Program-made: the position numbers and the translations under genes
The notes under the pieces: model-generated
The model's input: only the letters and a program-made list of their open reading frames with translations
Database searches by the model: none
What the model was told of the DNA's origin: nothing
From: a candidate division WWE3 bacterium
GTDB taxonomy: Bacteria > Patescibacteriota > WWE3 > UBA101185 > UBA10185
Direction: 5' to 3'
DNA length: 64,000 nucleotides
NCBI GenBank assembly: GCA_016182565.1
Contig: JACPGI010000003.1
Span: 5,280-69,279, forward strand
Shown: positions 3,452 to 55,055 of the stretch, piece by piece
How the letters are laid out: the number at the start of each line of letters is the position of its first letter
How positions within the stretch are numbered: the stretch's first letter is position 1

Positions 3452-3520
3452 AACGCGGATTAGTGTATGTTATCATAGTTGCATTACGCTTTTGTAATTA
3501 ATTATAGAACGGAAAACTTT

Positions 3521-3787
3521 ATGTACGAATTATTAGACTTTTATGCAGATTGGTGTGGTCCATGTCAGATTATGAAACCAATTTTTGCAGAAGTTGAACC
3601 CGCATTTGAAGGAAAAATTTCTTTCAAGACAGTTGATGTTGAAGCTGATCCTGATAAAGCTGTGAAATTTGGTGTTATGGGTATCCCTACTTTTGTTGTA
3701 TTAAAAGACGGCAAAGAAGTTGATCGCAAAACCGGTGCCATGCCAAAAGAATCCTTGGTAACTTGGCTTAAAACACATGTAAATTAA
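3521..3787 (+). CDS. trxA: Thioredoxin
   Basis: WCGPC active site. The start was reassigned to the ATG at 3521 (MYELLDFYADWCGPC); the track ORF begins upstream at 3479. Confidence 0.9.
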   Translation: MYELLDFYADWCGPCQIMKPIFAEVEPAFEGKISFKTVDVEADPDKAVKFGVMGIPTFVVLKDGKEVDRKTGAMPKESLVTWLKTHVN

Positions 3788-3821
3788 GTAGTTTAGTTTT
3801 GGTTTGTTTGAAAGGAAAAAA

Positions 3822-4910
3822 ATGTCTGCCCGCATTGCAATTAACGGTTTCGGAAGAATAGGTCGAGCCGCCTTTCGTATAATTTTGGAAAAAAATTTGG
3901 CTGATGTTGTTGTGATTAATGATCTTACAAACGCCAGAATTCTCGCTCATTTATTAAAATATGATACGGCATACGGCATTTATCCAGCTCAAATTTCTGT
4001 TGAAGAAGATGGGGTGGTTGTAGAGACGGAGGGTAATTCAAAGATGGAAGAGCATTTTGTAGAAGTTACTCCGAAAGAGTCCTACCTTGTTGTAAATGGG
4101 AAAAAAACTAAAGTAATTTCTGAAAAAGATCCAGCAAATCTTCCATGGAAAGATATGGGTATAGATGTGGTTTTAGAATGCACAGGTAGATTTACAAAAG
4201 ATGGCTCTGCAAAAGCACATATCACAGCAGGAGCAAAAAAAGTTGTGGTTTCTGCACCAACTTCAGGAGATAACGACGATGTAATGACTTTTTTGAAGGG
4301 TGTTAACCACGAAAGTTATTTAGGTCAAAATGTTATATCAAATGCTTCGTGTACTACAAACTGTATAGCGCCCGTTGCATCCGTAATACATGCCAATTTT
4401 AAAATCTTAAAGTCTTTGATGACGACAGTGCATAGTATTACCGCCGAACAAAGCATAGTAGATGGACCTCCTCCCGGGCTTCATCCGGACTTAAGAAGAG
4501 CAAGAGCTGCAGGACACAACATAATCCCAACTACCACAGGTGCTGCAAAAGCTATTGGTAAAGTAATTCCGGAATTAAATGGAAAATTTGATGGGATTGC
4601 TTTGAGAGTGCCTACATTAGTTGGCTCTCTGTCAGATATTACATTTGTGGTAGAGAAACAAACTACGGTTGAAGAGGTTAATAAAGCATTTATCAAAGCA
4701 AAAGAAAACCCATTTTATAAAGGAGTACTAGATACTACATGGGAGCCTTTAGTATCAAGCGATATTGTGGGAAGTCCATTTTCTACGATTGTGGATCTTT
4801 CCATGACAAAAGTTGTAGGGGGAGACCTTGTAAAAGTTTTAGCTTGGTATGATAACGAGTGGGGTTATGCTAATAGACTTGTTGAAATGGCACTTCTCGC
4901 GGTTTCGTAG
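3822..4910 (+). CDS. gap: Glyceraldehyde-3-phosphate dehydrogenase
   Basis: NGFGRIGR NAD-binding motif and the SNASCTTNC catalytic Cys region. The AAAGGAAAAAA RBS favours the ATG at 3822 over the track start at 3804. Confidence 0.9.
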   Translation: MSARIAINGFGRIGRAAFRIILEKNLADVVVINDLTNARILAHLLKYDTAYGIYPAQISVEEDGVVVETEGNSKMEEHFVEVTPKESYLVVNGKKTKVISEKDPANLPWKDMGIDVVLECTGRFTKDGSAKAHITAGAKKVVVSAPTSGDNDDVMTFLKGVNHESYLGQNVISNASCTTNCIAPVASVIHANFKILKSLMTTVHSITAEQSIVDGPPPGLHPDLRRARAAGHNIIPTTTGAAKAIGKVIPELNGKFDGIALRVPTLVGSLSDITFVVEKQTTVEEVNKAFIKAKENPFYKGVLDTTWEPLVSSDIVGSPFSTIVDLSMTKVVGGDLVKVLAWYDNEWGYANRLVEMALLAVS

Positions 4911-4996
4911 GTTTGTTATCTGTTGTAATTTCTCAGACAAAATTCAAAATTTAAATATTACTGGGTAGATTAGAAGATTAAACTTCTGTAAATGCT

Positions 4997-5044
4997 AAAA
5001 CAGCCAGAGGATAAGCAAGTGCTTTTTCCATCTGGCTGTTTTTA
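4997..5044. terminator. Bidirectional intrinsic terminator hairpin between gap (+) and a small minus-strand gene
   Basis: Stem AAAACAGCCAGA/TCTGGCTGTTTT with an internal loop, followed by TTTTTAGG on the plus strand. Confidence 0.5.
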
Positions 5045-5051
5045 GGTTAAG

Positions 5052-5294
5052 TTACGGTTGCCCCCATTTGTGACATGTGTCTTCAATTCCCCTCATCGAA
5101 GTTATTGAAAAGACACAAGGGTGCCCCTCCACCTCATAGAAAAGATGGAACATCGGGCTCCCGTCCATGCTTTCACTGAGGGAGTATGAACCGCCATCTT
5201 CCATTCCGTAATACAGGAAAACGGGGCCTGCACAGCATGCAATACACGCAACTATGCATAAAAGCGTGAAAAGCAAGTTCAAAAATTTTTTCAT
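5052..5294 (-). CDS. Hypothetical small Cys-rich membrane protein (80 aa) in a GC-rich insert
   Basis: N-terminal TM MKKFLNLLFTLLCIVACIACC. Local GC is clearly above the flanking genes. Confidence 0.4.
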   Translation of the reverse strand: MKKFLNLLFTLLCIVACIACCAGPVFLYYGMEDGGSYSLSESMDGSPMFHLFYEVEGHPCVFSITSMRGIEDTCHKWGQP

Positions 5295-5501
5295 GGCTGA
5301 TGAGCCTCCTACGTGCTATTATACCGCCAAACCCCCATTCTGGCAATGACTATAGGTTGCCGAATTGTCCGAATTATGCACCATAAAGGACTTTCTGCCC
5401 AAGGCAATCCTTGATTTTGCCATTGGTATTTACCTCGTTAATACTTTAAATTCACCTCTAACCCATCCCAAACCAACCTCAAAACCTGTTATCATTACCT
5501 T

Positions 5502-6476
5502 GTGGAGTCACTCAAATCTGCCCCAATTCAAAAAGGAACTCGTGTTTTTGTTCGATGTGATCTTGATGTCCCTGTGTCAGAGGGTAAAGTTAATGAGGTA
5601 TTTAGGCTTTCAAACCTTATACCAACCCTAAAACTAATAATACAAAAAGGAGGACGCCCTATAATTGTAGGACACATGGGAAGGCCCGAAGGAATTTTTA
5701 GAGAGGCCTTATCGACAATGCAGCTTAGACCATTTTTTGATTCTACCCTTGGCGAAAGTAATTATGAACTTCTTCAAAATTTAAGATTTGATTCCCGTGA
5801 AGAAAAAAATGACATAGAGTTTGCCAAAGAACTTATCGAAAAAACAAAATGCACTTTATACGTAAACGAATCTTTTGCAAATTCTCATAGAAAACACACC
5901 TCAATGATCGAACTACCTAAACTTCTTCCTCATTTTGCTGGACTTCGTTTGTGTGAAGAGCTAAGTATTTTAAGTAAGGTGCTAAAAAATCCCAAAAGAC
6001 CACTTATTGCAGTTATTGGTGGGGTAAAATTAGATTCAAAAAAACCTGCAATAAAAAAGTTTCTTGAAATTGCGGATGGTGTTTTAGTTGGTGGTAGGAT
6101 TGGTTTAGACTGGGACGAATTAATACCACCAAACCTTTTTCTGCCAGTTGACTATGCAGAAGGCAACAAAGACCTCGGCGAAAAAACTCTCGCCCACTTC
6201 TCAAAAATACTTCAAAGTGCAAGGACCATAGTTTGGGCAGGCCCAATGGGACTTTTTGAAGATCAAAACTACAGACATGGTACAAAAGTAATTGCTCAAA
6301 ATGTAGCACTAAGCTCTTCTTTTACTATTGTAGGCGGGGGTGATACTATCGCAGCACTGAAAAAAGTTGGTTACTTGGAAAAAATGGATTTTGTTTCTAC
6401 AGGTGGTGGAGCAATGCTTGAATTTTTAATACAAGGCAATCTCCCAGCTTTAGAAGCACTTGGTTATCATGGGTAA
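5502..6476 (+). CDS. pgk: Phosphoglycerate kinase (compact, 324 aa)
   Basis: RVFVRCDLDVPV N-terminal motif, VWAGPMGLFE and STGGGAMLEFL C-domain motifs. Shorter than the typical ~390 aa. Confidence 0.85.
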   Translation: MESLKSAPIQKGTRVFVRCDLDVPVSEGKVNEVFRLSNLIPTLKLIIQKGGRPIIVGHMGRPEGIFREALSTMQLRPFFDSTLGESNYELLQNLRFDSREEKNDIEFAKELIEKTKCTLYVNESFANSHRKHTSMIELPKLLPHFAGLRLCEELSILSKVLKNPKRPLIAVIGGVKLDSKKPAIKKFLEIADGVLVGGRIGLDWDELIPPNLFLPVDYAEGNKDLGEKTLAHFSKILQSARTIVWAGPMGLFEDQNYRHGTKVIAQNVALSSSFTIVGGGDTIAALKKVGYLEKMDFVSTGGGAMLEFLIQGNLPALEALGYHG

Positions 6477-6741
6477 AATTTTAAAAGCAACATTTAAAAA
6501 AAACTGTATAGGTTGTGAGCTTTGTGTATTTGAAGTTCAGCGGCAGCTTGGAAAAATCGGACTTGAAGGGTCTCCCATCAGGGTATTTCGTGAAAAGGGT
6601 GAGAAAGAAAAAATTGTTTATACAATAGGTATTGACCCATCTGTAAACAAACTTGATGTCGAAAAAATAGAGGGCGTTTGTCCCACAATGGTTTTTACTA
6701 TTGAGGATGAATCAAAGGAAGCAAATGACTACATTGAATAA
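6469..6741 (+). CDS. Small single-cluster [4Fe-4S] ferredoxin
   Basis: CIGCELC...CP pattern (CxxCxxC...CP). The ATG at 6469 overlaps the pgk stop by 8 nt (ATGGGTAA). Confidence 0.6.
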   Translation: MGKILKATFKKNCIGCELCVFEVQRQLGKIGLEGSPIRVFREKGEKEKIVYTIGIDPSVNKLDVEKIEGVCPTMVFTIEDESKEANDYIE

Positions 6742-7591
6742 AAAAATCTTATACATCAATCTTGCAAACCAAACTTATGAAACAAAGCTGCATGACAATT
6801 ACGGTAAGTATATTGGAGGTGTGGGTTTGGGGGCTAAGATTCTAAACACAATAGAAAAGTCTGAAGAGGCCTCAGTAAGTTCGGAACCCATCATATTTTC
6901 CATCGGGCCATTAAACGGCTATTTTCCATATGCATCTAAAACCTCCGTCTTGTTTCGCCACCACAATGAGCTAAAAGATCACTATTTAGGTGGTAATCTT
7001 TCTACAAGAATCAAATTCTCTTCTCTAGATGCGATTGTAATTTATGGGCGCTCCAAAGAACCAGTGACTTTTGATATTTTAGACGAAACAGTCATCTTTC
7101 ATACAGGCGGTGTAGATTTAGGCTCTCTTGGTCTTCCGGGAAAAAGATCTCAAATTTCAAAAAAAGGTGAAAAATATTTATTAGGTGACTATTTTGCGAC
7201 AGTAGATGATTCTTTAAGTCAACTTCTTACTAACAAAAACCTACAAGGTTTTGTAATTACCGGAACTCATACTTATGATCTTCCAAAATCCGAAAGATAT
7301 CTTGAACTTTATAATATGATGCTTTCACGCATCGAGGAAATTTCAGTTCGAAAAAGTGGTAGCCCATCATGTTCAGGATGTCCTGTAGGATGTTTTGAGT
7401 CAAGTAAAGGTGAAGAGGGTGGTAATCTTTTGGCGCATAGCCTAGTTGCATGCACATTTGCTCAAAAGATTTACGGTGATACAAGTATAGTTTTTTCTTG
7501 TCTTGATGTTTTAGGAAGTGGTTACACTCATGAAGATATAGAAAACTTTCCTAAGCTTGTATATGATTTGCTAGAAGAATTAAAAAAATAA
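6725..7591 (+). CDS. Truncated aldehyde:ferredoxin oxidoreductase (AOR)-family protein: N-terminal AFOR domain plus the CxxCxxxC cluster motif, lacking the pterin-binding C-terminal domain
   Basis: YIGGVGLGAKIL, IGPLNG and IKFSSLDAIVIYGRSKEPV align with the Pyrococcus AOR N-domain, and CSGCPVGC matches the AOR Fe-S ligand motif. AAAGGAAG RBS before the ATG at 6725. 288 aa against ~600 for a full AOR. Confidence 0.6.
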   Translation: MTTLNKKILYINLANQTYETKLHDNYGKYIGGVGLGAKILNTIEKSEEASVSSEPIIFSIGPLNGYFPYASKTSVLFRHHNELKDHYLGGNLSTRIKFSSLDAIVIYGRSKEPVTFDILDETVIFHTGGVDLGSLGLPGKRSQISKKGEKYLLGDYFATVDDSLSQLLTNKNLQGFVITGTHTYDLPKSERYLELYNMMLSRIEEISVRKSGSPSCSGCPVGCFESSKGEEGGNLLAHSLVACTFAQKIYGDTSIVFSCLDVLGSGYTHEDIENFPKLVYDLLEELKK

Positions 7592-7595
7592 ATTT

Positions 7596-8276
7596 ATGAA
7601 TAAATTAGTAGTTGGCAATTGGAAGCAAAATAAAACATTAAGTGAGGTAAAGGTGTGGATTAACGAGTTTAAAAAACTACTCAATGATAACCCAGAAATT
7701 ACAGGTCCCCTAGCAAAAGTGGATATGGTAGTTGCGCCGTCATTTCCTTTTTTGCACCATTTCCAAGGCTTGCGTACAAATGTAAGTAACTTTTATTTAG
7801 CTTCCCAAGATGTTTCTGTTTTTGAATCGGGGCGTCATACAGGCGACGTTGGTGCCAATCAGTTAAAAGATTATGTTGAATATTCTTTAATAGGTCACAG
7901 TGAAAGAAAGGAAGACAGAGCTTTAGTACTACAAAAAGGTACAAGACTTTTTGAGGCTTGTATCACCCCCATTATGTGCTTTAGTGAATTTGACCCAAAG
8001 ATGTACGTGGAGGGGACAGTTTTAGTTTGGGAAGACCCGGACAATATTTCAAATGATAGTGGTTATAGAGAGAAAGATATGAATGATATTGTGGAAGGCA
8101 TGAAAAAAATTAAGTCTCAGTTACCAAAAAGTGCTCGTGTTTTATATGGTGGGTCAGTTAATAGACAAAACGCTGCAAAATTAAGTACTATTAGTGAGCT
8201 GGATGGGGTTTTACCAGGTAATGCGAGTCTTGACCCAGCCCATTTTTTTGAGATAGTTAAAGCCTTCAACAAATGA
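7596..8276 (+). CDS. tpiA: Triosephosphate isomerase
   Basis: VVGNWKQNKT and GHSERK catalytic motifs. Confidence 0.9.
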   Translation: MNKLVVGNWKQNKTLSEVKVWINEFKKLLNDNPEITGPLAKVDMVVAPSFPFLHHFQGLRTNVSNFYLASQDVSVFESGRHTGDVGANQLKDYVEYSLIGHSERKEDRALVLQKGTRLFEACITPIMCFSEFDPKMYVEGTVLVWEDPDNISNDSGYREKDMNDIVEGMKKIKSQLPKSARVLYGGSVNRQNAAKLSTISELDGVLPGNASLDPAHFFEIVKAFNK

Positions 8277-9412
8277 GTTATGTAGATTTAGGTAAAACTG
8301 TTGAGCAACATCAGCAGAGAAAAGAAATTGCCAAAAAAAGGGAAATTAACTCTTCTAAAAAAGGTATTTTTGTAGCCTTGTTTTTGCTCGCACTTCTAAT
8401 TGGATTTATAACTTTGTTTGGTAAAAATGTTGTGGCATTATTTGATCCTGTATCTATTGTGGGTGATGTATCAGCTCCAAAAATAAAAGAGGTTGATGGC
8501 AGAACCAATGTTTTGATAATCGGTGTTGATAGAAGATCAACTGGTCCTGAGACCTCAGTACTTACCGACACTCTACTTTTTGCCTCAATTGGAAGAACTG
8601 ACGGGAAAGTTTCAATGATTTCACTACCACGAGATCTTTGGGTTGAAGCCGATTCTGGAAAAGGTCCCCATTTTATGAAAATAAATTCGGTGTATGCAAT
8701 AGATGGGTTGACTGAGCTTAAAAAAGTTACCGAAAATGTTTTAGGAATGCCTGTTCACTACTATATTGTGGTAGATTTTAATTTATTTAGAAAAGTTATA
8801 GATATACTAGGTGGTATTGATGTAAATGTTGAAAATGCCTTTATAGACTATGAGTATCCAAAAGAAGGACACGAAGCTGACTATTGCGGAAGATCCAATG
8901 AGGATGTAGTTAGGCTTGATGGCCAGCCATTGTATGTAATATTTCCTTGTAGATACGATAAAGTTGAGTTCAAGGCCGGCATGCAAACAATGAACGGTGA
9001 TTCGGCTTTAAAATTTGCTAGATCGCGCCATGGTAATAATAATGAAGGTACCGACTTTGCACGTGCTCATCGTCAGCAAAAAGTTATTATGGCAGTGAAA
9101 GATAAAGCATTTTCTCTTAACACAATTATGGATATAAGTAAGATAAAAGAACTATATGATTCCTACGCAAAAAGCGTGGAAACTAATGTTTCACTTGATG
9201 ATATTCAGGGATTTCTTGCATTGTCCCGAAAAACAGATATAAGCACAGTACGCTCAATTGTTCTTGATGATAGAAGTGGTGCTGATGCGGGGGGACTCTT
9301 ATATCATCCAAGTGATAGCAGCCTGTATGGTGGGGCGTATGTCCTTATTCCAAAAGCGAATGATTACGCTCAAATAAGAGCTTACGTGCAAAGATATATT
9401 TTTGGTGAATAA
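8273..9412 (+). CDS. LytR-CpsA-Psr (LCP) family cell-wall polymer transferase
   Basis: N-terminal TM, LIIGVDRR and an LCP-domain layout. Confidence 0.8.
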   Translation: MSYVDLGKTVEQHQQRKEIAKKREINSSKKGIFVALFLLALLIGFITLFGKNVVALFDPVSIVGDVSAPKIKEVDGRTNVLIIGVDRRSTGPETSVLTDTLLFASIGRTDGKVSMISLPRDLWVEADSGKGPHFMKINSVYAIDGLTELKKVTENVLGMPVHYYIVVDFNLFRKVIDILGGIDVNVENAFIDYEYPKEGHEADYCGRSNEDVVRLDGQPLYVIFPCRYDKVEFKAGMQTMNGDSALKFARSRHGNNNEGTDFARAHRQQKVIMAVKDKAFSLNTIMDISKIKELYDSYAKSVETNVSLDDIQGFLALSRKTDISTVRSIVLDDRSGADAGGLLYHPSDSSLYGGAYVLIPKANDYAQIRAYVQRYIFGE

Positions 9413-10124
9413 TATAAGTATGATTTATATACTGCATGGTGATGATGCTTCGTCTTCTAGAGATTTTATACTTAGCCTCCAAGATCAAAATAAAGTAACA
9501 AAAAAAACTGAAGTAACCTTTGATGGGATAGATTTAACAGCCTTAAAGATTGAGTTGAGTGCCCTAGATATGTTTAGCGAGTCCAGGATGTTGGTTTTGG
9601 ACATGTCTAAAGTCGGAAAAAGTAATGTCGATAGTTTAATTGAGGTCTTGGAGAACGTGCCTTGCGATTTACTTCTTGTGATTTTTACAAACAAAGAACT
9701 TTCAAAGGTTAATCCTTTTATAAAAGCAGCACTCAAACTAAAAGCAAAAGTTATGGAGTTTAAGAAAAGGCCTTCTGCAAATATTTTTGCGTTTGTAGAT
9801 GCTGTGTTTGATAAAAACAGGCCCCAAGCCTTCAAAGAGTTACAAAAATTACTTCTTATGGGTGAGGATGCAGTGTATCTTATTACCATGTTGTCGTATG
9901 GGCTAAGAAATGTAGCTTATGCTAAGTTTAATTCCCCGTTATTTGAAAAGATTCCACCTTTTAATAAAGGAAAAGTTAGAGCTCAGGCTGCAAAGTTTTC
10001 AGAGAGTGGCGTTGTAAGTTTAATCGAGCAGTTTTATGAAATGGATCGAGGAGTTAAATTTGGTGATTTTGATCCTAATGTAGTTATTCCAATGGCACTA
10101 GAAAAGGTAATGGCTTCCCGGTGA
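9402..10124 (+). CDS. holA: DNA polymerase III delta subunit-like (clamp-loader delta)
   Basis: N-terminal IYILHGDD... pattern typical of HolA and a size of 240 aa. Moderate similarity only. Confidence 0.5.
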   Translation: MVNNISMIYILHGDDASSSRDFILSLQDQNKVTKKTEVTFDGIDLTALKIELSALDMFSESRMLVLDMSKVGKSNVDSLIEVLENVPCDLLLVIFTNKELSKVNPFIKAALKLKAKVMEFKKRPSANIFAFVDAVFDKNRPQAFKELQKLLLMGEDAVYLITMLSYGLRNVAYAKFNSPLFEKIPPFNKGKVRAQAAKFSESGVVSLIEQFYEMDRGVKFGDFDPNVVIPMALEKVMASR

Positions 10125-41339: not shown

Positions 41340-44300
41340 ATGTGTATGAAAACTTTGATTAAGGTTCTAACCCTACTTTTTTTGTTTCTTATTACTTTAA
41401 TGTCTAACACCAGATTTTCTTTTGCTGTTGATCTAGATGTTTATACTGAGCCGACTAGTTACGTCTATGATGCCACTGATAACGCCTCCCTTGTGATTGA
41501 AGATGTTTCGGGGGATGGGGCAGACGATATGCTGTATTTTTCAGGTGACAACAGTGGAACGATGTATGTGTACCTAAATGGTAACTTACCCCAAACCGGT
41601 GAAGTTCTTAGCACTGCGCTTACAGGATATAATGTTAGGTATACTAATTTGGGCACTAATTTGTACGGACAACATCGTATCGCCACTGGAGATATTGATA
41701 ATGATGGCTCTACTGATATTTTGGTTTCAACAGAATCCGCTCTTTACGGGTTTTTAGCAGATGATATTGCTGCATATCAGAATCAGACGCTACAGACGGT
41801 GAATGTTTCAACAACCCCCGCTGCCTACCTGTTTAAAATGTACAGAGCCGGTCTTCAAATTGGATATAGTCACGGCCAGGCTTTTTACTTGACTGATATT
41901 TCAGGGGATGGGGCAAATGACATTGTACTAAGCGACGACAATAATTTTTGGATTTATTATGTTAATAACAGCATCTTTGGTAGTGTGAGCCACGGTACTC
42001 AACTAAACCTTGCCACTTCATCAAACTACAATGTTTTGATGACTTCAGGATTTAGTGGGATTATGGAAGATGGTGATGGGTTTACTGTGGGAGATTTTAC
42101 AGGCGATGGTAAATCTGATGTCGTGGCTCTTATTAGTAATCTATCTTACGGAACAATAAATGTTGTACTTGGATCTCAGTTGAGTGCAATTGCGGGGACA
42201 GGAAATTCCTTAGACCTCACTAGTGCTGCAAACTCATCAATAAGAATTAAAGGCACTAGTACACTTGCTTTCTACGAGAATTACACTGGTTTGGGGATAT
42301 ACGATGTGACTGGGGACGGTGATCCAGATTTGGAAGTTGCCTTAGGTGGGACTAGTGGATCAGGTCCAGGTTATTTGTATGTGTTTTCAAATGAATTAGC
42401 TCAAACTTGGGAGGGGGTCACTGGAACAGACGTTTTGCTTAGTACAAATACCGTTTATTCCTACTCGATTTCTGGTGAAGGGTTTAGTGGTGGCAATTAT
42501 GGTTTCGCTGCAAATAATGGGTTTCATGTGGCTGATATAAATGAGAACGGTATAAACGACCTTGTGATCGGAGATGATTACTACAGCACCGGTTGTACTA
42601 ATTGTGGTGTTGCCTATGTTATATTGGATAACTTGTTAGCTGATTTTGCTGTATCATCTGCGCCTAGTAATACATTTTCCTTAGGAAATTCTGCATATTT
42701 TACTCTTAAGATAAAAGGAGCAGCCAATAGTGCACGGGCCACAAGCACTAGTAGCCAGGGCAATGGTGGTATTTTCTTAGGCGATGTGAATAGTGATGGT
42801 TATAACGACCTAGTTGTTACATATAGTGATGGTTGGAGCTTATATTTGAGTGATAGGTTTGTAGATTTAGGAATAACTACAGGAACTTCTTGGACAACTG
42901 CTACCAATGTAGATCGTAGGTATACGGGCTCTTGGTGTGGTGCTTGTCGGCTTTCAGTGGGTGATTTAAATGACAACGGGGCCAACGACCTAGCAATTAG
43001 TAACTCGGGGCGTGATGAGAGCTATTTTTTCCTTGGAGGTTCAACAATAAATTCCCTAGGGGCAAGTTTAGGGGCTGAGGTGCAGTCTAATGGTGATGAT
43101 GCAACTAGCGACCCGCAAGGGGGCACAAAAAGCGTCATTTTAACAAAATCCAGTATTCCAGTCGCCTTAGTTACAACATCCTTTACTGCTATTGATGGTT
43201 TAGATTGGTCTGTTATCACTGCTGATGTAGATTCGGATGCCGGTAAAAGCGTGGCAACAAATATTGAAAGTGCTGATGGAACAGGAGCTTCTCATAGCCT
43301 GTACGTACCAAAGCTTGCGGGGGCTCTAGGTGTGTATGTTTGTCCTGATGCCACAAATCTTGCAGGAGTAACTGATTCATGTACAAACGGCTATGAACTT
43401 TCCGAAGGCGAAAGCGGTCTTACCGAGGTAACCATTGACTCAGTAGATTACTGGAGAATTTCAGGACTAACTGGAACAGGTGCTCAAAATGTATTGGACA
43501 CAGATCCTCCAGTAAATGGTAATTTCGTGATAAATGGTGGTGCTGCTTATACTACTTCAACCAGTGTTACTTTAACAATCTCAGCTACTGATGAGCTATC
43601 TGATGTTTCTCAGATGGAGATCTCCGAAGACTCTAGTTTTACTGGTGCCTCGTGGGAAGCTTATTCGACTAGTAAGAGTTTTACCTTATCATCAACCTCT
43701 GGTACCAAAACCGTCTACATAAAATACAAAGACAGTAATGATAACGAGTCATCATCCTATTCAGATAGTATTATTTTAGACAGTAACTCTCCTGGGAAAC
43801 TTCGCATAGGTCTAAAGGAAGATAAACTATTTACCGTAGGCGAAGCTCACTTTGAGCTTAAGGATAGGAAATTCAAGCTATATGTAGATACATTTGATAG
43901 TACAACAGATGTAGACCAAATTAAGGTATCAGAACATAGTGATTTTGAAGAGGATGACTATGAAGACTATGATGGTGATCTTAACATCAAGTTGTCAAAC
44001 GGTGCTGAAAAGAAGTATCTCTACTTTAGATTAAAAGATAGTGCAGGAAACACCTCGAAAGTTTATAAACAACTCGTCAAATACAATCCAAACTATACTA
44101 AAAACTTAATCCAAGAAGACGATGATGACATGGAAGAAAACCCAATTTTAAATGGTATGACAGAAGATACAGATGTAGTTCTTGAAAAGATCGGAACTAT
44201 TCAATATTCTACAGATCACAAAAACTATTTCTATACAGAAAATTTCTTGACCCTTTTAGGTAAATCCAGTGGAATTGTATCAATATCAGTAGACGGAGAT

Positions 44301-44639
44301 TTCAGTGATTCTACATACTCTAATGATACTAATGTCTTCTCACTTTCATTAAACCTTACAGACGGTAAACACGATATTGTAGTAGGTAATACAAGCTTTT
44401 CTATAACAATAGACCCATCAGGTAACTCCTTTCCTACTTCATTGAAAACTGTGCTTGGCATACAAACGTCTTCTGAGCAGATATCCGGGGACGGTGATGA
44501 AAAAAGAGTTGAAACCCCAGATAATAAAGAGTTGATCCAAGCTGATGGAGCTTCACCGGAAGTGACTGATGGTACACAACAAACAGGCGGAACATTTTTT
44601 GGGAATACATGGCAGTGGGTCAAATCTTTGTTTGATTAG
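41340..44639 (+). CDS. Large secreted/surface protein (1099 aa) with about 7 FG-GAP (integrin-alpha-like, Ca-binding DxDxDG) repeats and a long Ser/Thr-rich C-terminal region
   Basis: Signal peptide, then repeats TGDIDNDGSTDIL, DISGDGANDIV, GDFTGDGKSDVV, YDVTGDGDPDLE, ADINENGINDLV, GDVNSDGYNDLV and GDLNDNGANDLA. Confidence 0.7.
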   Translation: MCMKTLIKVLTLLFLFLITLMSNTRFSFAVDLDVYTEPTSYVYDATDNASLVIEDVSGDGADDMLYFSGDNSGTMYVYLNGNLPQTGEVLSTALTGYNVRYTNLGTNLYGQHRIATGDIDNDGSTDILVSTESALYGFLADDIAAYQNQTLQTVNVSTTPAAYLFKMYRAGLQIGYSHGQAFYLTDISGDGANDIVLSDDNNFWIYYVNNSIFGSVSHGTQLNLATSSNYNVLMTSGFSGIMEDGDGFTVGDFTGDGKSDVVALISNLSYGTINVVLGSQLSAIAGTGNSLDLTSAANSSIRIKGTSTLAFYENYTGLGIYDVTGDGDPDLEVALGGTSGSGPGYLYVFSNELAQTWEGVTGTDVLLSTNTVYSYSISGEGFSGGNYGFAANNGFHVADINENGINDLVIGDDYYSTGCTNCGVAYVILDNLLADFAVSSAPSNTFSLGNSAYFTLKIKGAANSARATSTSSQGNGGIFLGDVNSDGYNDLVVTYSDGWSLYLSDRFVDLGITTGTSWTTATNVDRRYTGSWCGACRLSVGDLNDNGANDLAISNSGRDESYFFLGGSTINSLGASLGAEVQSNGDDATSDPQGGTKSVILTKSSIPVALVTTSFTAIDGLDWSVITADVDSDAGKSVATNIESADGTGASHSLYVPKLAGALGVYVCPDATNLAGVTDSCTNGYELSEGESGLTEVTIDSVDYWRISGLTGTGAQNVLDTDPPVNGNFVINGGAAYTTSTSVTLTISATDELSDVSQMEISEDSSFTGASWEAYSTSKSFTLSSTSGTKTVYIKYKDSNDNESSSYSDSIILDSNSPGKLRIGLKEDKLFTVGEAHFELKDRKFKLYVDTFDSTTDVDQIKVSEHSDFEEDDYEDYDGDLNIKLSNGAEKKYLYFRLKDSAGNTSKVYKQLVKYNPNYTKNLIQEDDDDMEENPILNGMTEDTDVVLEKIGTIQYSTDHKNYFYTENFLTLLGKSSGIVSISVDGDFSDSTYSNDTNVFSLSLNLTDGKHDIVVGNTSFSITIDPSGNSFPTSLKTVLGIQTSSEQISGDGDEKRVETPDNKELIQADGASPEVTDGTQQTGGTFFGNTWQWVKSLFD

Positions 44640-47373: not shown

Positions 47374-47793
47374 ATGAGTGATTTACTGTCCCAACAAAAT
47401 TCACAGAACGATCAGAATTTATCCGGAGTTCAAAATACTTCACCTACCCCATTTATCCCATCGACCCAATCTTATAGTCTTGGTGCCGAAAACCCACAGA
47501 TTGTTGAGACACCAACTCCAGTTGAGTTAAATCCGGAAAGTAAAGAACTTTTGCGAAAACCAGAAATACCAGTGCCAGCTGCACTTAAAGAAGAATCCAA
47601 TCAAGCAGAAAAAAATAACCCAGTTTTTACAATTGTTCCAGACCTAGCAGTAAAAGTAGCTATTCCAAAAGTTGAACCAAAAAAAGCAACCCTACATCAT
47701 ATTGAAACTCCCGGGAATGACCTTACAAAAAAAGCAGACGAAGAAGAAGAGGATTTTATAAAGCATGTTGAGGAAATCCACACTATTGTATGA
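47374..47793 (+). CDS. Hypothetical Pro/Gln-rich low-complexity protein, translationally coupled (ATGA) to the downstream ATPase
   Basis: The ORF has no TM. Its stop overlaps the ATPase start. Confidence 0.4.
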   Translation: MSDLLSQQNSQNDQNLSGVQNTSPTPFIPSTQSYSLGAENPQIVETPTPVELNPESKELLRKPEIPVPAALKEESNQAEKNNPVFTIVPDLAVKVAIPKVEPKKATLHHIETPGNDLTKKADEEEEDFIKHVEEIHTIV

Positions 47794-50195
47794 GTAGCCT
47801 AATGGACACACTTTACACAGGATTTTGGATTGTTTTTTATATTGTGTTTCTCATCACTTTTTTTTGGGTTATTTTTCTTGCAGTTTCAAGAAGATTTAGA
47901 AACAAAAGAGAACATGAAGAAAGATACAGCCTTACTTTCATGCAAATAAAACTACCGCGTGAGAATGAGGTTGAGATAAAAGCTGCTGAGCAGATGTTTT
48001 CTGGACTCATTGGTATTAAAAAACCGTTTTGGGGAGCTCTATTTACAGGGCAGCATAGGGTTTCATTTGAGATAGTGTCTAAGGCTGAAGGAATAGGCTT
48101 TTATGTTGTAACGCCGGATTCACTTGCCGGTCTTGTTGAAAAGCAAATAAATGGAGCATACCCGGATGCTGAAATTGATATTGTTGATCCAAGCGAGGTC
48201 TGGGATCGTGGGGCGTACACGTCAGTCATGGAACTACGTCTTGCAGGGCCTTCTTATTACCCTATTAAAGTTTATGAAAATATGGGTAGTGATACCATGA
48301 GTGGCATCACTTCTGTCATGAGTAAGCTTGAGGCAGATGAGGCTCTTGCAATCCAGCTTGTAATAAGCCCATCAGGAGAGGCTTGGAGAAATCATGGTTA
48401 TAGATTTATAGGAAATGTTAAAGCCGCTCAAGCAAATCCCGAAAAGTCTTCTAAGGTCGACGCTACTTTTATCGAGGGGGTTGAAAAAGAAGTTGCTAAA
48501 CCTGGTTTTGATGTTGCAATAAGAGTAATCTCCTTAGCTAAAGATAAAATTACCGCCGACTCTCATTTACAAAATGTCCACTCGGCCTTCGAACAATTTA
48601 CAAATCCAAAATACAATAAATTTAAACAAGTTAGCTTCATGAGTTCTCAAAGAATTGTTGACGACTTCATTTTTAGAAGGCTAGATGCCCTGGAAGTTTC
48701 AATTCCGGCTTTTGACATCCCGCTTTATAGAAATACTTCCCTTTTAAATATTGAAGAATTAGCAACAGTGTTTCATTTCCCAAATAAAAATGTCCAGACC
48801 CCAAAGATTATGTGGCTGCAGTCAAGAAAAAGCGCAGCCCCATCAAATGCACCAAAGGAAGGTATGTACCTCGGGAAAAATATATTTAGAGGTGTGGAGA
48901 CTAAAATCCACTTAAAACCGGATGATAGAAGGAGACATACTTATATTATTGGCCAGACCGGTACAGGAAAGTCACAACTTTTGATGTATATGGCAGTGCA
49001 AGACATTGTTGCAGGTCACGGAGTATGTGTTATTGATCCACACGGAACTGATATAGATGATATTTTGAAAAAGATTCCACCGGAAAGAATGGACGATGTT
49101 ATTTTGTTTGATGTGTCGGATACTACAAGGCCTCTTGGTTTAAATATTTTAGAGGCGGAAGATGATGATCAAAGAAATATGATCATAAATTCGTTTATAG
49201 GGCTTTTATATAAACTTTATGATCCAAACCATTCAGGTATTATCGGCCCACAGTTAGAGCGCGCTGTTCGAAACATAATGCTTACAGCAATGGTTGACCC
49301 TGAAAGCACCATGATTGATGTATTACGGCTTGTAATCGACGGTGAGTATATCAAAAAGTTTCTGCCAAAAATAAAAGATCCGCTTGTGAAAAGGTATTGG
49401 ACAGACGAAATGGCAAAAACTTCTGATTTTCATAAAAGCGAAAAAGTAGGCTATTTTGTTTCGAAGTTTGACCGTTTTGTTACCGAAAAAGTAATGCGTA
49501 ATATCATAGGGCAGCCAAAATCCGCTCTAAATTTTCCTAAAATTATGGCAGAAAAGAAGATACTTCTTGTTGATTTATCAAAAGGTAAGATCGGGGAAGA
49601 AAATTCAAATTTCTTAGGTCTTATTTTAGTTCCAAGAATATTATCAGCCGCTATGGCAAGACATACTTTAATAGGCAAAGAAGATTTTCCGGACTTTTAT
49701 CTATATGTCGATGAGTTTCAAAATTTTGCAACTCCGGACTTTGCGACTATTTTATCGGAAGCTCGTAAGTACAAGTTAAACTTAATTGTTGCCAACCAAT
49801 TTATAGCTCAGCTTACAGATGACATTAAAAATGCAGTATTTGGCAACGTTGGTACTACTATGGCATTTAGAGTAGGCGCGGATGATGCAGAGTATCTTGA
49901 AACTCAGTTTGCACCGTTTACTAAGGCTGATCTTATAAATAATACTGTCGGTAATTACTACATGAAGCTTCTTGTGAATGGCCAGCCAACCCCACCATTT
50001 TCTGTAAATATAAATTGGGAGGAAATACAGGCCGTAAAAAAATATCCAGGTGTTGACGAGAGGCTTAGAGAAATGTCTAGGATGAAATACGGCGTACCTG
50101 TAGAAGAGGTTGATAAATATATAAATCTTCGTGCCGGCTTTGGTGATGAGTTTGAAACCAAAGATCCAAGAGATATTATAAAAGAGTTGTTTTAA
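47790..50195 (+). CDS. VirB4/VirD4-superfamily (TraG/TraD-like type IV secretion/conjugation) P-loop ATPase, N-terminal TM anchor
   Basis: N-terminal TM, an approximately 350-aa N-domain, Walker A GQTGTGKS, Walker B LYVDEFQNFA and the conserved ARKYKLNLIVANQFIAQL motif typical of T4SS VirB4/coupling-protein ATPases. It is 801 aa. Confidence 0.6.
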   Translation: MSSLMDTLYTGFWIVFYIVFLITFFWVIFLAVSRRFRNKREHEERYSLTFMQIKLPRENEVEIKAAEQMFSGLIGIKKPFWGALFTGQHRVSFEIVSKAEGIGFYVVTPDSLAGLVEKQINGAYPDAEIDIVDPSEVWDRGAYTSVMELRLAGPSYYPIKVYENMGSDTMSGITSVMSKLEADEALAIQLVISPSGEAWRNHGYRFIGNVKAAQANPEKSSKVDATFIEGVEKEVAKPGFDVAIRVISLAKDKITADSHLQNVHSAFEQFTNPKYNKFKQVSFMSSQRIVDDFIFRRLDALEVSIPAFDIPLYRNTSLLNIEELATVFHFPNKNVQTPKIMWLQSRKSAAPSNAPKEGMYLGKNIFRGVETKIHLKPDDRRRHTYIIGQTGTGKSQLLMYMAVQDIVAGHGVCVIDPHGTDIDDILKKIPPERMDDVILFDVSDTTRPLGLNILEAEDDDQRNMIINSFIGLLYKLYDPNHSGIIGPQLERAVRNIMLTAMVDPESTMIDVLRLVIDGEYIKKFLPKIKDPLVKRYWTDEMAKTSDFHKSEKVGYFVSKFDRFVTEKVMRNIIGQPKSALNFPKIMAEKKILLVDLSKGKIGEENSNFLGLILVPRILSAAMARHTLIGKEDFPDFYLYVDEFQNFATPDFATILSEARKYKLNLIVANQFIAQLTDDIKNAVFGNVGTTMAFRVGADDAEYLETQFAPFTKADLINNTVGNYYMKLLVNGQPTPPFSVNINWEEIQAVKKYPGVDERLREMSRMKYGVPVEEVDKYINLRAGFGDEFETKDPRDIIKELF

Positions 50196-53462: not shown

Positions 53463-55055
53463 ATGGAAAAACTTGAATTTTTAATACATGACGATGTAAT
53501 TGCAATAATAGATAAGATCAGAAATTTTTCGGGTTCTAATATAGAACTTTTTTTTCCAGATGGCTCCGTAGTTTTTGATAATGGATTAAACTTGCGTCTT
53601 ATAAAAAAAGAATGTGACAAACTAAATAAAACTGTTTTATTTTCTACCAATGATCCTGAAGGTAAATACCTTGTTTCTTTAGTCGATGATGTCACAAGGG
53701 AAGTTTCTGGAGATAGCAATTCCGACTTTGTTTCAAGAGAGGTTTCTTTGGATGAAGTAACAGGTATAACAACTAAAAACTCTATTAAATCCTCAAAATT
53801 TACTATGTCGACTGTGTTACCAAACCTTTCTCGTATACGAGGTATAAAAACTCCACTAATCAAGTTTCCAAAACTTGGGTTAAACTTTGGATTAATAGTG
53901 ATGGGGATTTTATTTGCTGGGTTAATTGCTGGTTTTGCGTATTGGTATTTTTGGACTATTCCTAAGGCAGATGTAAATATAGTTTTAAAATCAGAACCTC
54001 TTGTAAAAAGTCTTCAGATAACAGTTGAAAACGGTGGTAAAAATAGTGCGTCCCTAAGGACTTTAGAGGGGCGTATCTTTTCCTCTACACTCACCGAGAC
54101 TGTAAAAACAGATGCGACAGGTTCAAAACTTATTGGTGAAAAAGCAGGGGGCAAAATAAAAGTTATCAATAGAACAACAACCGCTAAAACTTTTAAAAAA
54201 GGCGAAAAACTGCATTATAAAGAAGATGATGATTTATTGTTTAGTATCGATGATGATTTGACGGTACCCGGAGCACAGTTACAGGATCCACTTGATGTAA
54301 ATTCTGCCTTGGTACCAGGAAATGCTGAGGTTTCTACAACTGCCACAGAGTTTGGCAAGAGCTACAACATATCAAAAGGCAAAACGTTTGAGTTTGAAAA
54401 ATATAGCACCACTGACTACATTGCCGAAGTCACGACAAGTTTTTCTGGAGGCTCAAGTGAGCAAGTTAAGGTAGTAACTCAGGTGGACTTAGACAAACTT
54501 GCAACAGATATTGCACTTGTTTTTAAGGAAAAAGGTCCCCAAGCAGTAAAATCTGGTGTACAGCAAGGTTGGGTTTTAATAAACGGTTCAGAGACAAGCA
54601 CGAGTATAAGTAAAAAATATAATAAAAAAGTTGATGACGTTTCTAATGAAGTCGAACTGGTCGAGACAGTAAACTACCAGGGGCTTGGATACAGTAGTAA
54701 TGGTTTAAATTCCCTTCTTAACGATCTTTTGGCCGAGTTTATTACAAAAGACTATGAACTTTCTAAGGAAAGTAGAGACATCAAGGCCGAAGTTTTAGGT
54801 AATACTGATAAAACAGTTTTGACTACGTCAAAAGCAGATCTTCAAGTGACCGTGAAGGCTTTCATTGTTCCAGTTTTAAATGCCGATAATATAAAAAATA
54901 GTCTTCTAGGAGTTTCTTTTACGGAGGCCGAGCGACTTTTAAATGAAATAAAAAATATTAAGACATATGGTATAAACATGACACCAAAAGTCTCACTATT
55001 AAAACGAATTCCAAAAAATATCGCTAACGTAAATTTAAACATTACCTTGGAATAA
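53463..55055 (+). CDS. Hypothetical bitopic membrane protein (130-aa cytoplasmic domain, TM, about 370-aa Thr/Lys-rich extracytoplasmic domain), coupled to the FtsA-like gene
   Basis: TAA-ATG adjacency with the upstream gene and a TM LIVMGILFAGLIAGFAYWYFW. Confidence 0.45.
   Translation: MEKLEFLIHDDVIAIIDKIRNFSGSNIELFFPDGSVVFDNGLNLRLIKKECDKLNKTVLFSTNDPEGKYLVSLVDDVTREVSGDSNSDFVSREVSLDEVTGITTKNSIKSSKFTMSTVLPNLSRIRGIKTPLIKFPKLGLNFGLIVMGILFAGLIAGFAYWYFWTIPKADVNIVLKSEPLVKSLQITVENGGKNSASLRTLEGRIFSSTLTETVKTDATGSKLIGEKAGGKIKVINRTTTAKTFKKGEKLHYKEDDDLLFSIDDDLTVPGAQLQDPLDVNSALVPGNAEVSTTATEFGKSYNISKGKTFEFEKYSTTDYIAEVTTSFSGGSSEQVKVVTQVDLDKLATDIALVFKEKGPQAVKSGVQQGWVLINGSETSTSISKKYNKKVDDVSNEVELVETVNYQGLGYSSNGLNSLLNDLLAEFITKDYELSKESRDIKAEVLGNTDKTVLTTSKADLQVTVKAFIVPVLNADNIKNSLLGVSFTEAERLLNEIKNIKTYGINMTPKVSLLKRIPKNIANVNLNITLE

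What the first reader, a model, noticed from the sequence alone, without database searches (positions are those of the whole stretch)
6469..7591. A ferredoxin plus a half-size AOR-family protein sits inside the gap-pgk-tpi glycolytic operon
Two overlapping genes lie between pgk and tpiA: a 90-aa single-cluster ferredoxin (CIGCELC...CP) and a 288-aa protein. The N-terminal ~200 aa of the larger protein align motif-for-motif with the N-domain of tungsten aldehyde:ferredoxin oxidoreductases (YIGGVGLGAKIL, IGPLNG, IKFSSLDAIVIYGRSKEPV). It keeps the AOR CxxCxxxC Fe-S ligand motif (CSGCPVGC) but lacks the ~380-aa pterin-binding domain. The AOR family includes GAPOR, which bypasses GAPDH and PGK in archaeal glycolysis, so the position between pgk and tpiA suggests either a decayed GAPOR-like module or a new minimal redox partner of the glycolytic enzymes. 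I do not know of a described stand-alone AFOR N-domain protein.
Basis: partly seen in the sequence, partly recalled or inferred. Interest (0 to 1): 0.8.

Follow-up and report, generated by a model that had tools for sequence, protein, structure and literature searches.

The report
Pterin-less mini-AOR with partner ferredoxin
Two real, conserved genes between pgk and tpiA in a WWE3 (candidate phyla radiation) bacterium encode a small ferredoxin-like protein and an aldehyde:ferredoxin oxidoreductase that has lost its tungsten-cofactor domains but kept its iron-sulfur site; this form has not been described, it cannot work like the parent enzyme, and its role is unknown.

Summary
Window 6469-6741 encodes a 90-aa CxxCxxC...CP protein. 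Window 6725-7591 encodes a 288-aa protein with a significant AFOR_N match (E 1.8e-21) and no AFOR_C domain.

It is not a pseudogene or an assembly error. In 72 species-level genomes of WWE3/Patescibacteria the order Fd-like -> mini-AOR -> tpi -> lytR is the same. All 71 complete copies are intact ORFs of about 276-310 aa and carry CxxCxxxC, down to about 30% identity.

Sister lineages carry a roughly 550-aa AFOR_N+AFOR_C protein in the same genomic slot, usually behind a homologous Fd-like gene. The short form is therefore a derived ortholog.

There is no GAPOR signal. The most likely role is a two-cluster Fe-S electron-transfer or redox-sensing module co-transcribed with pgk/tpi. The physiological partner is unknown, and the link to glycolysis rests on gene order alone.

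Verdict: a new variant of a known kind, of moderate interest.

The parts
6469..6741 (+). Gene for the 90-aa ferredoxin-like protein. Cys13/16/19 (nt 6505-6525) and Cys71-Pro72 (nt 6679-6684) form a CxxCxxC...CP pattern, as in single-[4Fe-4S] ferredoxins.
   Evidence: ORF. It is 100% identical to the NCBI protein HYV31_00415 of a candidate division WWE3 bacterium. C13, C16, C19 and C71 are invariant in 18- and 22-sequence alignments. CxxCxxC is present in 69 of 72 species loci. Predicted secondary structure is beta-alpha-beta-beta-alpha-beta, but the model is poor (pLDDT 55). No Pfam or PDB hit is significant.
6725..7591 (+). Gene for the 288-aa 'mini-AOR': an AOR-family protein that lacks the pyranopterin-binding core.
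6725..7324 (+). AOR domain 1 (AFOR_N fold), residues about 1-200. Lys72 aligns with PfAOR Arg76. Invariant Phe157 replaces the pterin-phosphate ligand Arg182.
   Evidence: Profile alignment to 1aor residues 9-226. hhalign to full-length AORs gives probability 100 and E 1e-46. Residue mapping was counted from the alignment.
7370..7393 (+). CSGCPVGC (Cys216, Cys219, Cys223), the counterpart of the AOR [4Fe-4S] ligands Cys288/291/295.
   Evidence: Aligned to NKPCYACPIGC of 1aor 285-299. hhalign probability 84, E 7.5e-6. Present in 71 of 71 complete species copies.
7394..7588 (+). Retained piece of AOR domain 3 (residues about 224-288). It contains HSLVAC with Cys243, the counterpart of the fourth cluster ligand Cys494. 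It also contains the family-specific conserved Cys259 (nt 7499-7501) and invariant His269 (nt 7529-7531).
   Evidence: hhalign to P0210 residues 475-547 gives probability 97.3 and E 2e-11. tblastn of P0210 residues 471-539 against window 7382-7588 gives E 6e-6. Cys at +20 and +36 after the motif in about 67 of 71 copies. H269 is invariant among 30 representatives of 50%-identity clusters.
5502..6476 (+). pgk (324 aa, compact). Its stop overlaps the start of the Fd-like gene by 8 nt.
   Evidence: Pfam PGK E 1e-77; junction.
7596..8276 (+). tpiA (226 aa; a small TIM with a WEDPxNIS lid). It begins 4 nt after the mini-AOR stop and is the invariant downstream neighbour of the Cys-containing short form (all loci whose contig extends that far).
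   Evidence: Pfam TIM E 1e-37. Best PDB match is the 216-aa TIM 7r7m_A at E 3e-42. Gene order tallied; spacing mode -4 nt.
8273..9412 (+). lytR/cpsA/psr-family gene. It overlaps tpiA by 4 nt and lies downstream of every variant of the AOR-like gene examined.
   Evidence: Pfam E 1e-36. Contexts.
3804..4910 (+). gap (type I GAPDH), preceded by a thioredoxin gene (about 3521-3787). In this window it is separated from pgk by a 590-nt spacer that ends its transcription unit with a hairpin plus T-run at about 5001-5047.
   Evidence: NCBIfam TIGR01534 at 398 bits, above its cutoff. Hairpin read from the sequence.

Best explanation
The pair is a lineage-specific reduced descendant of an AOR-type enzyme and its ferredoxin-like partner.

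What the larger protein keeps and loses:
- It keeps AOR domain 1 and all four cysteine ligands of the AOR [4Fe-4S] cluster: Cys216/219/223 from the domain-2 knuckle and Cys243 from the domain-3 'xSLxxC' motif, in their native geometry.
- It has lost by internal deletion the parts of domains 2 and 3 that bind the bis-pyranopterin-W/Mo cofactor and carry the catalytic residues.
- It therefore cannot oxidise aldehydes or GAP by AOR/GAPOR chemistry.

What remains is the electron-entry half of an AOR. It is translationally coupled to a dedicated one-cluster ferredoxin-like protein.

The most likely function is a small two-cluster Fe-S module that passes electrons or senses redox, oxygen or iron status. 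It is expressed from the same transcript as pgk, tpi and downstream housekeeping genes.

Shown: homology, architecture, conservation, the syntenic full-length ortholog, and the absence of a GAPOR signal.
Inferred: that both proteins actually bind clusters, that they form a complex, and any physiological partner.
For: Architecture:
- AFOR_N is significant and AFOR_C is absent.
- hhalign maps residues about 224-288 to AOR 475-547, including the fourth Cys (probability 97.3). It maps CSGCPVGC to the AOR CxxCxxxC (probability 84). tblastn confirms the domain-3 piece.

Selection:
- 72 species loci share the same gene order.
- 71 of 71 complete ORFs are 276-310 aa long with CxxCxxxC. The +20 and +36 Cys are present in about 67 of them. 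Fd-like CxxCxxC is present in 69 of 72. The Fd/mini-AOR overlap has a mode of 17 nt.
- The Cys residues and His269 persist among representatives only 27-53% identical to the window protein.
- The most divergent members (27-32% identity) still sit in Fd-mini-tpi order.

Origin:
- The nearest full-length relatives are 538-554-aa AFOR_N+AFOR_C proteins of WWE3/Patescibacteria.
- They occupy the same slot upstream of lytR-holA-sortase. Four of the five such loci examined have a homologous CxxCxxC...CP small ORF in front.
- In an N-domain NJ tree the short clade is monophyletic in 95 of 100 bootstraps, and short plus mid-size proteins separate from canonical AORs in 99 of 100.

Loss of pterin function:
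- Arg182 is replaced by invariant Phe157 and the GRxGxG loop is lost (alignment).
- The 550-aa relatives have already lost the GYHTG (His448) and RHSHLD motifs.

Precedent (from my own knowledge of these entries): AOR-family large subunits with an adjacent Fe-S subunit gene are known, namely AorA/AorB (8c0z), WOR5 (6x1o) and BamBC (4z3w). Those Fe-S subunits were the weak, non-significant PDB matches of the small protein.
Against: - No experiment or coordinate analysis shows that either protein binds a cluster or that they interact. The Fd-like model is of low confidence.
- Cluster-less relatives persist in the same slot. The 550-aa proteins P0203, P0209 and P0212 lack all four Cys. A 260-aa short form, P0228, lacks them and has no Fd or tpi neighbour. 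Whatever keeps this gene in WWE3 may therefore not be redox chemistry.
- A two-cluster relay needs a donor and an acceptor, and none is identified.
- The conserved extra Cys259 and His269 are unexplained by a pure relay.
Confidence: 0.55

Rival explanations
1. A non-redox pseudoenzyme or scaffold. The conserved function lies in domain 1 (binding a protein or ligand). The [4Fe-4S] site is only a structural element. The gene belongs functionally with its constant downstream neighbours (lytR-holA-sortase, cell-envelope and housekeeping genes) rather than with glycolysis.
For: - The AOR-like gene lies upstream of lytR in every variant examined, either directly or with only tpi between them: Fd-AOR550-lytR, pgk-AOR548-lytR, Fd-mini-tpi-lytR and mini-lytR.
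- Variants without any cluster Cys are retained as intact ORFs: P0203, P0209, P0212 and P0228.
- Canonical catalytic motifs had already been lost in the 550-aa relatives.
Against: - In the clade that includes the window, the three motif Cys are present in all 71 complete copies and the +20 and +36 Cys in about 67 of them. The Fd-like partner is always present and translationally coupled. That argues the clusters matter here.
- The Fd-like gene is kept even next to the cluster-less 550-aa proteins.
- Synteny within one class-level lineage is weak evidence of a functional link to lytR as well.
Confidence: 0.2
2. A redox switch or novel Fe-S enzyme acting on the triose-phosphate node. The Fd/mini-AOR pair would couple the ferredoxin pool to TIM, GAPDH, PGK or thioredoxin. 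One form would be a ferredoxin-dependent thiol switch using the cluster plus Cys259/His269. Another would be a pterin-independent oxidoreductase.
For: - Fd-mini-tpi order is invariant in the Cys-containing short form even at 27-32% identity, while the upstream gene varies among trx, gap and pgk.
- Spacing of -4 to +12 nt suggests translational coupling to tpi.
- trx lies at the head of the cluster in many loci.
- There is an extra conserved Cys and an invariant His beside the cluster ligands.
Against: - No GAPOR affinity.
- With four Cys ligands there is no open iron site for substrate.
- TIM here is an ordinary small TIM with a solved close relative.
- TIM, GAPDH and PGK are universal in CPR, whereas this pair is confined to WWE3 (PMC7304191).
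- The operon also holds unrelated genes.
- Sister lineages have the AOR-like gene without tpi or pgk beside it.
Confidence: 0.12
3. A decaying AOR/GAPOR pseudogene, or a frameshift or assembly artefact of a full-length gene.
For: A full-length (roughly 550-aa) AOR-like gene occupies the same slot in sister lineages.
Against: - 71 of 71 complete species-level copies are intact with constant length and conserved motifs, and at least 328 homologs were found in independent assemblies.
- Only 4 nt separate the stop from tpi, which leaves no room for a lost C-terminal half.
- There are no AFOR_C remnants elsewhere in the window.
- The confident AF2 model is a compact single body.
Confidence: 0.01

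Closest known systems
Tungsten/molybdenum aldehyde:ferredoxin oxidoreductase family (AOR, FOR, WOR5, BamB, AorB, YdhV; the 'WorL' large subunits)
   Same: - Domain 1 is homologous over its full length.
- The [4Fe-4S] ligand set is the same: CxxCxxxC plus the distal Cys in the xSLxxC motif.
- An Fe-S partner gene lies next to it.
   Different: - It lacks about 300 residues of domains 2 and 3, so it has no pterin-binding DxxGLD motif and none of the regions that carry Thr243, Glu313, Tyr427 and His448.
- In domain 1, Arg182 is replaced by Phe.
- It is 288 aa long, against 540-700.
- It cannot perform the family's chemistry.
The roughly 540-555-aa AOR-like proteins of WWE3/Patescibacteria (P0202, P0203, P0207, P0209, P0212/P0312, P0215)
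   Same: - They are the closest relatives by profile score and by tree.
- They occupy the same genomic slot upstream of lytR-holA-sortase.
- They usually follow a homologous CxxCxxC...CP small gene.
- They share the His269-type 'SHE/AHE' motif wherever the cluster Cys are kept.
   Different: - They still have an AFOR_C domain, though with the canonical GYHTG and RHSHLD motifs altered.
- Several have lost all four cluster Cys, which the mini-AOR keeps.
- tpi is not adjacent to them.
[quoted passage not shown]
   Same: It belongs to the same superfamily, is ferredoxin-linked and has a thematic link to lower glycolysis.
   Different: - There is no specific sequence affinity: no hit at E<=1.
- GAPOR is a roughly 650-aa tungstopterin enzyme.
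- The organism keeps a normal GAPDH and PGK alongside.
Fe-S subunits of AOR-family complexes (AorA, WOR5 small subunit, BamC, YdhY) and single-cluster ferredoxins (P. furiosus / T. maritima type)
   Same: - The gene is adjacent to, and co-oriented with, an AOR-family gene.
- It has a CxxCxxC...CP ligand pattern.
- Its predicted secondary-structure order is beta-alpha-beta-beta-alpha-beta.
   Different: - It has only one cluster motif, whereas those subunits carry three or four clusters.
- It has no significant sequence or structure match to any known ferredoxin.

Membership tests
AOR/WOR family (WorL) | N-terminal domain (PF02730 / IPR013983) | tested here: met
AOR/WOR family (WorL) | Domains 2 and 3 (PF01314 / IPR001203), which bind the bis-pyranopterin W/Mo cofactor | tested here: not met
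   No AFOR_C hit. Only two short remnants align, the Cys knuckle and residues about 224-288 with AOR 475-547. The 2026 WOR classification requires both domains (PMC13328260).
AOR/WOR family (WorL) | Four Cys ligands of the [4Fe-4S] cluster (PfAOR C288, C291, C295, C494) | tested here: met
   C216, C219, C223 and C243 align to them and are conserved. Actual cluster binding cannot be tested here.
AOR/WOR family (WorL) | Catalytic and pterin-contact residues (Thr243, Glu313, Tyr427, His448; Arg182 in domain 1) | tested here: not met
   The regions that carry them are deleted. Arg182 aligns with invariant Phe157, while Arg76 aligns with Lys72 (alignment).
GAPOR | Match to the archaeal GAPOR equivalog model NF040818 (cutoff 1300 bits) | tested here: not met
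   No hit at E<=1 for the mini-AOR. The 550-aa relatives score 19-30 bits, below their YdhV-type AOR score.
Single-cluster [4Fe-4S] ferredoxin (small protein) | CxxCxxC ... CP ligand pattern | tested here: met
   C13, C16, C19 and C71-P72 are invariant. Present in 67-69 of 72 loci.
Single-cluster [4Fe-4S] ferredoxin (small protein) | Significant match to Fer4-type Pfam families or to solved ferredoxins | tested here: not met
   Fer4_21, Fer4 and Fer4_2 give E 0.05-0.4, below their cutoffs. The best PDB profile hits have E >= 0.13.
Single-cluster [4Fe-4S] ferredoxin (small protein) | (beta-alpha-beta)2 ferredoxin fold | tested here: inconclusive
   The AF2 model has pLDDT 55. Its secondary-structure order fits, and Foldseek finds only generic ferredoxin-fold proteins at E >= 0.06.
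Pseudogene / assembly artefact | Disrupted or variable reading frame, with no purifying selection | tested here: not met
   71 of 71 complete copies are intact and 276-310 aa long, with conserved motifs, in species-level genomes. At least 328 homologs were found.

The most novel reading that the evidence does not exclude
The ferredoxin-like protein and the mini-AOR form a pterin-independent Fe-S device that acts directly on the triose-phosphate node of this minimal fermenter. One possibility is a ferredoxin-driven thiol or redox switch that uses the cluster together with the conserved Cys259 and His269 to control TIM, GAPDH, PGK or thioredoxin. Another is a new Fe-S-only oxidoreductase. Either would be an AOR electron-entry module re-used for a different job.
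Probability: 0.12. Interest if true: 0.8.

Novelty: new variant of a known kind. Interest (0 to 1): 0.55.

Why it matters
- It shows how a complex cofactor enzyme can be cut down to its electron-entry module and still be kept under selection. This happened in bacteria that, from general knowledge of CPR genomes rather than a test here, probably cannot make the tungsten/molybdenum pterin cofactor.
- The family is confined to one CPR class (WWE3/Katanobacteria) and was found in every species-level genome the pattern scan matched. It lies in the most conserved metabolic gene cluster of these organisms, and published classifications of the AOR/WOR family leave it out by design.
- If the pair proves to interact with glycolytic enzymes or thioredoxin, it would be a new kind of redox control in organisms with almost no other metabolism.
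- If it does not, it is a clean example of a pseudoenzyme derived from an AOR.
- It also cautions against calling 'AOR' or 'GAPOR' in metabolic reconstructions of CPR genomes from an AFOR_N hit alone.

Tried and rejected
- **GAPOR descent.** Rejected: no NF040818 signal.
- **Pseudogene or frameshift.** Rejected on conservation and on the 4-nt gap to tpi. tblastn with full-length AORs found no AFOR_C remnant elsewhere in the window.
- **Pterin carrier or chaperone role for domain 1.** Judged unlikely, because the pterin-phosphate ligand Arg182 and the GRxGxG loop are replaced (alignment).
- **A second, independent mini-AOR family outside CPR.**
  - P0262 (295 aa) sits next to a MoCF_biosynth gene.
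  - It turned out to be a singleton with no relatives at E<=1e-10, so it carries no weight.
- **Structure of the Fd-like protein.** The model was too poor (pLDDT 55) for a meaningful fold search.
- **afdb50 fold library.** Not available.
- **Literature searches.** Searches for WWE3 or CPR with AOR, AFOR_N, PF02730 and truncated AOR found nothing that describes this protein.
- **RNA genes.** Rfam and tRNA scans of the window and of the gap-pgk spacer found nothing significant.
- **Distances in the model.** Cys-Cys and Cys-His distances could not be measured because model coordinates are not exposed.
Full report
**1. What is there**

The + strand of window 3479-10124 carries these genes in order:
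- trx (about 3521-3787) and gap (3804-4910)
- a 590-nt spacer
- pgk (5502-6476)
- a 90-aa Cys protein (6469-6741)
- a 288-aa protein (6725-7591)
- tpiA (7596-8276), lytR (8273-9412) and a holA-like gene

The junctions are tight. pgk and fdx overlap by 8 nt. fdx and the 288-aa gene overlap by 17 nt. A 4-nt spacer precedes tpi, and tpi and lytR overlap by 4 nt.

The window belongs to candidate division WWE3 (Katanobacteria, CPR). The small protein is 100% identical to a WWE3 GenBank protein.

**2. The larger protein is an AOR with its cofactor domains deleted**

- Pfam gives AFOR_N at E 1.8e-21 and no AFOR_C.
- A 32-sequence family profile aligns residues 9-194 to P. furiosus AOR residues 9-226 at E 1e-14. 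It weakly aligns NPSCSGCPLGC to AOR 285-299, the Cys288/291/295 cluster knuckle.
- I cut the family alignment at residue 200 and compared it with an alignment of full-length AORs.
  - Residues about 224-288 align with positions 475-547 of a 604-aa AOR (probability 97.3, E 2e-11).
  - That stretch includes HSLVAC against SLHAC, the motif with the fourth cluster ligand (Cys494).
  - CSGCPVGC aligns with CFGCPVGC at probability 84.
  - Plain tblastn confirms the domain-3 piece at E 6e-6.
- The AF2 model is confident (pLDDT 89, pTM 0.90).

The protein is therefore domain 1 plus the complete four-Cys cluster cradle. AOR residues about 226-285 and about 300-475 are removed, and so is the C-terminal tail. 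These segments hold the pterin-binding motifs and the catalytic Thr243, Glu313, Tyr427 and His448 (residue list from PMC13328260). In domain 1, Lys72 stands where Arg76 does, but the pterin-phosphate ligand Arg182 is an invariant Phe (counted from the alignment).

**3. It is under selection, not decaying**

- A word-indexed search found at least 328 homologs, and the 120 listed are about 275-300 aa long with AFOR_N only.
- An exhaustive profile search found about 40 clusters at 50% identity.
- A scan of one genome per GTDB species returned 72 loci titled candidate division WWE3, Patescibacteria group, 'uncultured Candidatus Saccharibacteria' or unclassified bacterium. tblastn shows the order Fd-like, mini-AOR, tpi, lytR wherever the contig extends that far.
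- Tally over those loci:

| Feature | Count |
|---|---|
| Complete ORFs intact, 276-310 aa (two outliers from start-codon choice) | 71 of 71 |
| CxxCxxxC present | 71 of 71 |
| Cys at +20 and +36 after the motif (Cys243, Cys259) | about 67 of 71 |
| Fd-like CxxCxxC present | 69 of 72 |
| Commonest Fd/mini-AOR overlap | 17 nt |
| Commonest mini-AOR to tpi spacing | -4 nt |

- Among cluster representatives only 27-53% identical to the window protein, C216, C219, C243 and His269 are invariant. C223 and C259 are at least 90% conserved.
- The most divergent members still show the same core order: trx-Fd-mini-tpi, pgk-Fd-mini-tpi-lytR, and trx-gap-Fd-mini-tpi-lytR.
- In 12 species loci gap, not pgk, directly precedes the Fd-like gene.

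**4. Where it came from**

- The best full-length hits of the short-family profile are 538-554-aa proteins (E 1e-37 to 1e-26). They have AFOR_N plus AFOR_C and come from WWE3/Patescibacteria.
- Their contexts are revealing.
  - In four loci the order is (gap)...small ORF, AOR550, lytR, holA, sortase...PilO, S20. This is the slot the mini-AOR occupies, but without pgk or tpi.
  - The small ORFs in two of these loci were translated and are homologous CxxCxxC...CP proteins.
  - One locus has pgk, AOR548, lytR and no Fd-like gene.
- Three of these 550-aa lineages have lost all four cluster Cys.
- The whole group has altered the canonical GYHTG (His448) and RHSHLD motifs.
- In an NJ tree of N-domains the short clade is monophyletic in 95 of 100 bootstraps. 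Short plus mid-size proteins split from canonical AORs in 99 of 100.
- The short form is therefore a fixed derived ortholog within a CPR-specific AOR-like clade that was already drifting away from canonical chemistry.
- One 260-aa short variant (P0228) lacks the cluster Cys. It sits directly before lytR with neither an Fd-like gene nor tpi.

**5. The small protein**

- Cys13, Cys16, Cys19 and Cys71-Pro72 are invariant. The predicted secondary structure runs beta-alpha-beta-beta-alpha-beta.
- Homology to known ferredoxins is not significant. Pfam Fer4 families give E 0.05-0.4. PDB profile hits have E >= 0.13, and they include the Fe-S subunits of AorABC and WOR5. The model is poor.
- 'Ferredoxin-like, probably one [4Fe-4S]' is the defensible wording.

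**6. Relation to glycolysis and GAPOR**

- The archaeal GAPOR model gives no hit for the mini-AOR and only 19-30 bits for its full-length relatives, against a cutoff of 1300.
- The organism has a normal type I GAPDH, PGK and TIM. TIM, GAPDH and PGK form the universal core of CPR carbon metabolism (PMC7304191).
- The TIM is a small variant with a WEDPxNIS lid. Its closest solved relative is a 216-aa TIM, 7r7m, at E 3e-42.
- The invariant Fd-mini-tpi order and the tight coupling are real.
- However, the operon runs on into lytR, holA and sortase. WWE3 genomes are broadly syntenic here, and sister lineages keep the AOR-like gene without tpi or pgk beside it.
- Gene order therefore supports co-expression. 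It does not establish a biochemical link.

**7. How it most likely works**

- Without the pterin domains the protein cannot perform AOR or GAPOR chemistry.
- What survives is the part of an AOR that receives or delivers electrons through its [4Fe-4S] cluster. It is coupled to a dedicated one-cluster partner.
- This resembles AOR-family large subunits paired with adjacent Fe-S subunits (AorAB, WOR5, BamBC; from my own knowledge of those entries).
- I therefore favour a two-cluster electron-transfer or redox-sensing module (confidence 0.55).
- Alternatives, in order of weight:
  - A non-redox scaffold whose cluster is structural (0.2). The cluster-less relatives support this.
  - A redox switch or new Fe-S enzyme acting on the triose-phosphate node or thioredoxin (0.12).
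  - A pseudogene (0.01).
- The conserved Cys259 and His269 remain unexplained. Among the mid-size proteins a His at the His269 position occurs only in those that keep the cluster Cys.

**8. Novelty**

- Databases label these proteins 'hypothetical' or 'AFOR N-terminal domain-containing'. I found no paper that discusses them.
- The current WOR-family classification admits only two-domain proteins.
- This is a new variant of a known kind. It is well defined structurally and evolutionarily, and its function is open.

Noticed in passing
window 4911-5501: The gap-pgk spacer is GC-richer than its surroundings (0.44 against about 0.36). It holds a minus-strand 80-aa ORF (5052-5294) with a hydrophobic, Cys-rich N-terminus, an AGGAGG Shine-Dalgarno sequence 7 nt upstream, and an 11/12 promoter-like site at 5346-5318. 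A hairpin plus T-run at about 5001-5047 could terminate both gap and this ORF. Other WWE3 genomes carry non-homologous ORFs or nothing at this position, so it looks like a variable insertion spot.
   Followed up: partly
window 7596-8276: tpiA is a small TIM (226 aa) whose lid loop reads WEDPDNISNDSGY instead of the usual YEPVWAIGTG. It scores below all NCBIfam TIM cutoffs. It matches a solved 216-aa TIM (7r7m_A) at E 3e-42. Jaffe et al. 2020 reported that some Katanobacteria TIMs cluster with archaeal ones.
   Followed up: partly
L086-L088, L090 (gene at 7001-8656): Sister WWE3 lineages carry a roughly 550-aa AFOR_N+AFOR_C protein that has lost all four [4Fe-4S] cysteines. It is still preceded by a small gene that keeps CxxCxxC...CP. 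Neither tpi nor pgk is adjacent.
   Followed up: partly
L095 6001-6783: A 260-aa short form (P0228) lacks CxxCxxxC and the fourth Cys but keeps the Cys259 and His269 positions. It lies directly upstream of lytR, and no small CxxCxxC-type ORF or tpi is called beside it.
   Followed up: no
L094 503-1390: P0262 (295 aa) has the same architecture of N-domain, CxxCxxxC and NSLVMCLFAEKIY, but its sequence resembles canonical AORs. It lies next to a MoCF_biosynth gene, NAD synthase and GSIII on a 3.3-kb contig. It has no relatives at E<=1e-10 and may be a one-off deletion or an assembly artefact.
   Followed up: yes
L092 1-3622: In one divergent lineage a four-gene [NiFe]-hydrogenase cluster lies divergently next to pgk-Fd-mini-tpi. 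Its products carry Fer4_22, an FAD/NAD-binding domain, Oxidored_q6 and NiFeSe_Hases. It is a possible source or sink for ferredoxin-type electrons.
   Followed up: no
L017, L018, L026, L030, L039, L041, L052, L073-L075, L077, L078: In 12 species loci gap is directly followed by the Fd-like gene, with no pgk between them. pgk must lie elsewhere or be missing in those genomes.
   Followed up: no
L007-L078 record titles: Many loci with typical WWE3 synteny come from assemblies titled 'uncultured Candidatus Saccharibacteria bacterium'. This is probably a coarse or wrong taxonomic label. I did not verify it.
   Followed up: no
window 5502-6476: PGK is unusually compact: 324 aa against a 379-position Pfam model, matched in three stretches. 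Both termini look intact.
   Followed up: no
window 41340-44639; 47790-50195; 53463-55055: Three large ORFs stand out among the housekeeping genes. One is a 1099-aa FG-GAP-repeat protein. One is an 801-aa protein with only a weak TraG-D_C (coupling-protein-like) hit. One is a 530-aa ORF with no Pfam match.
   Followed up: no
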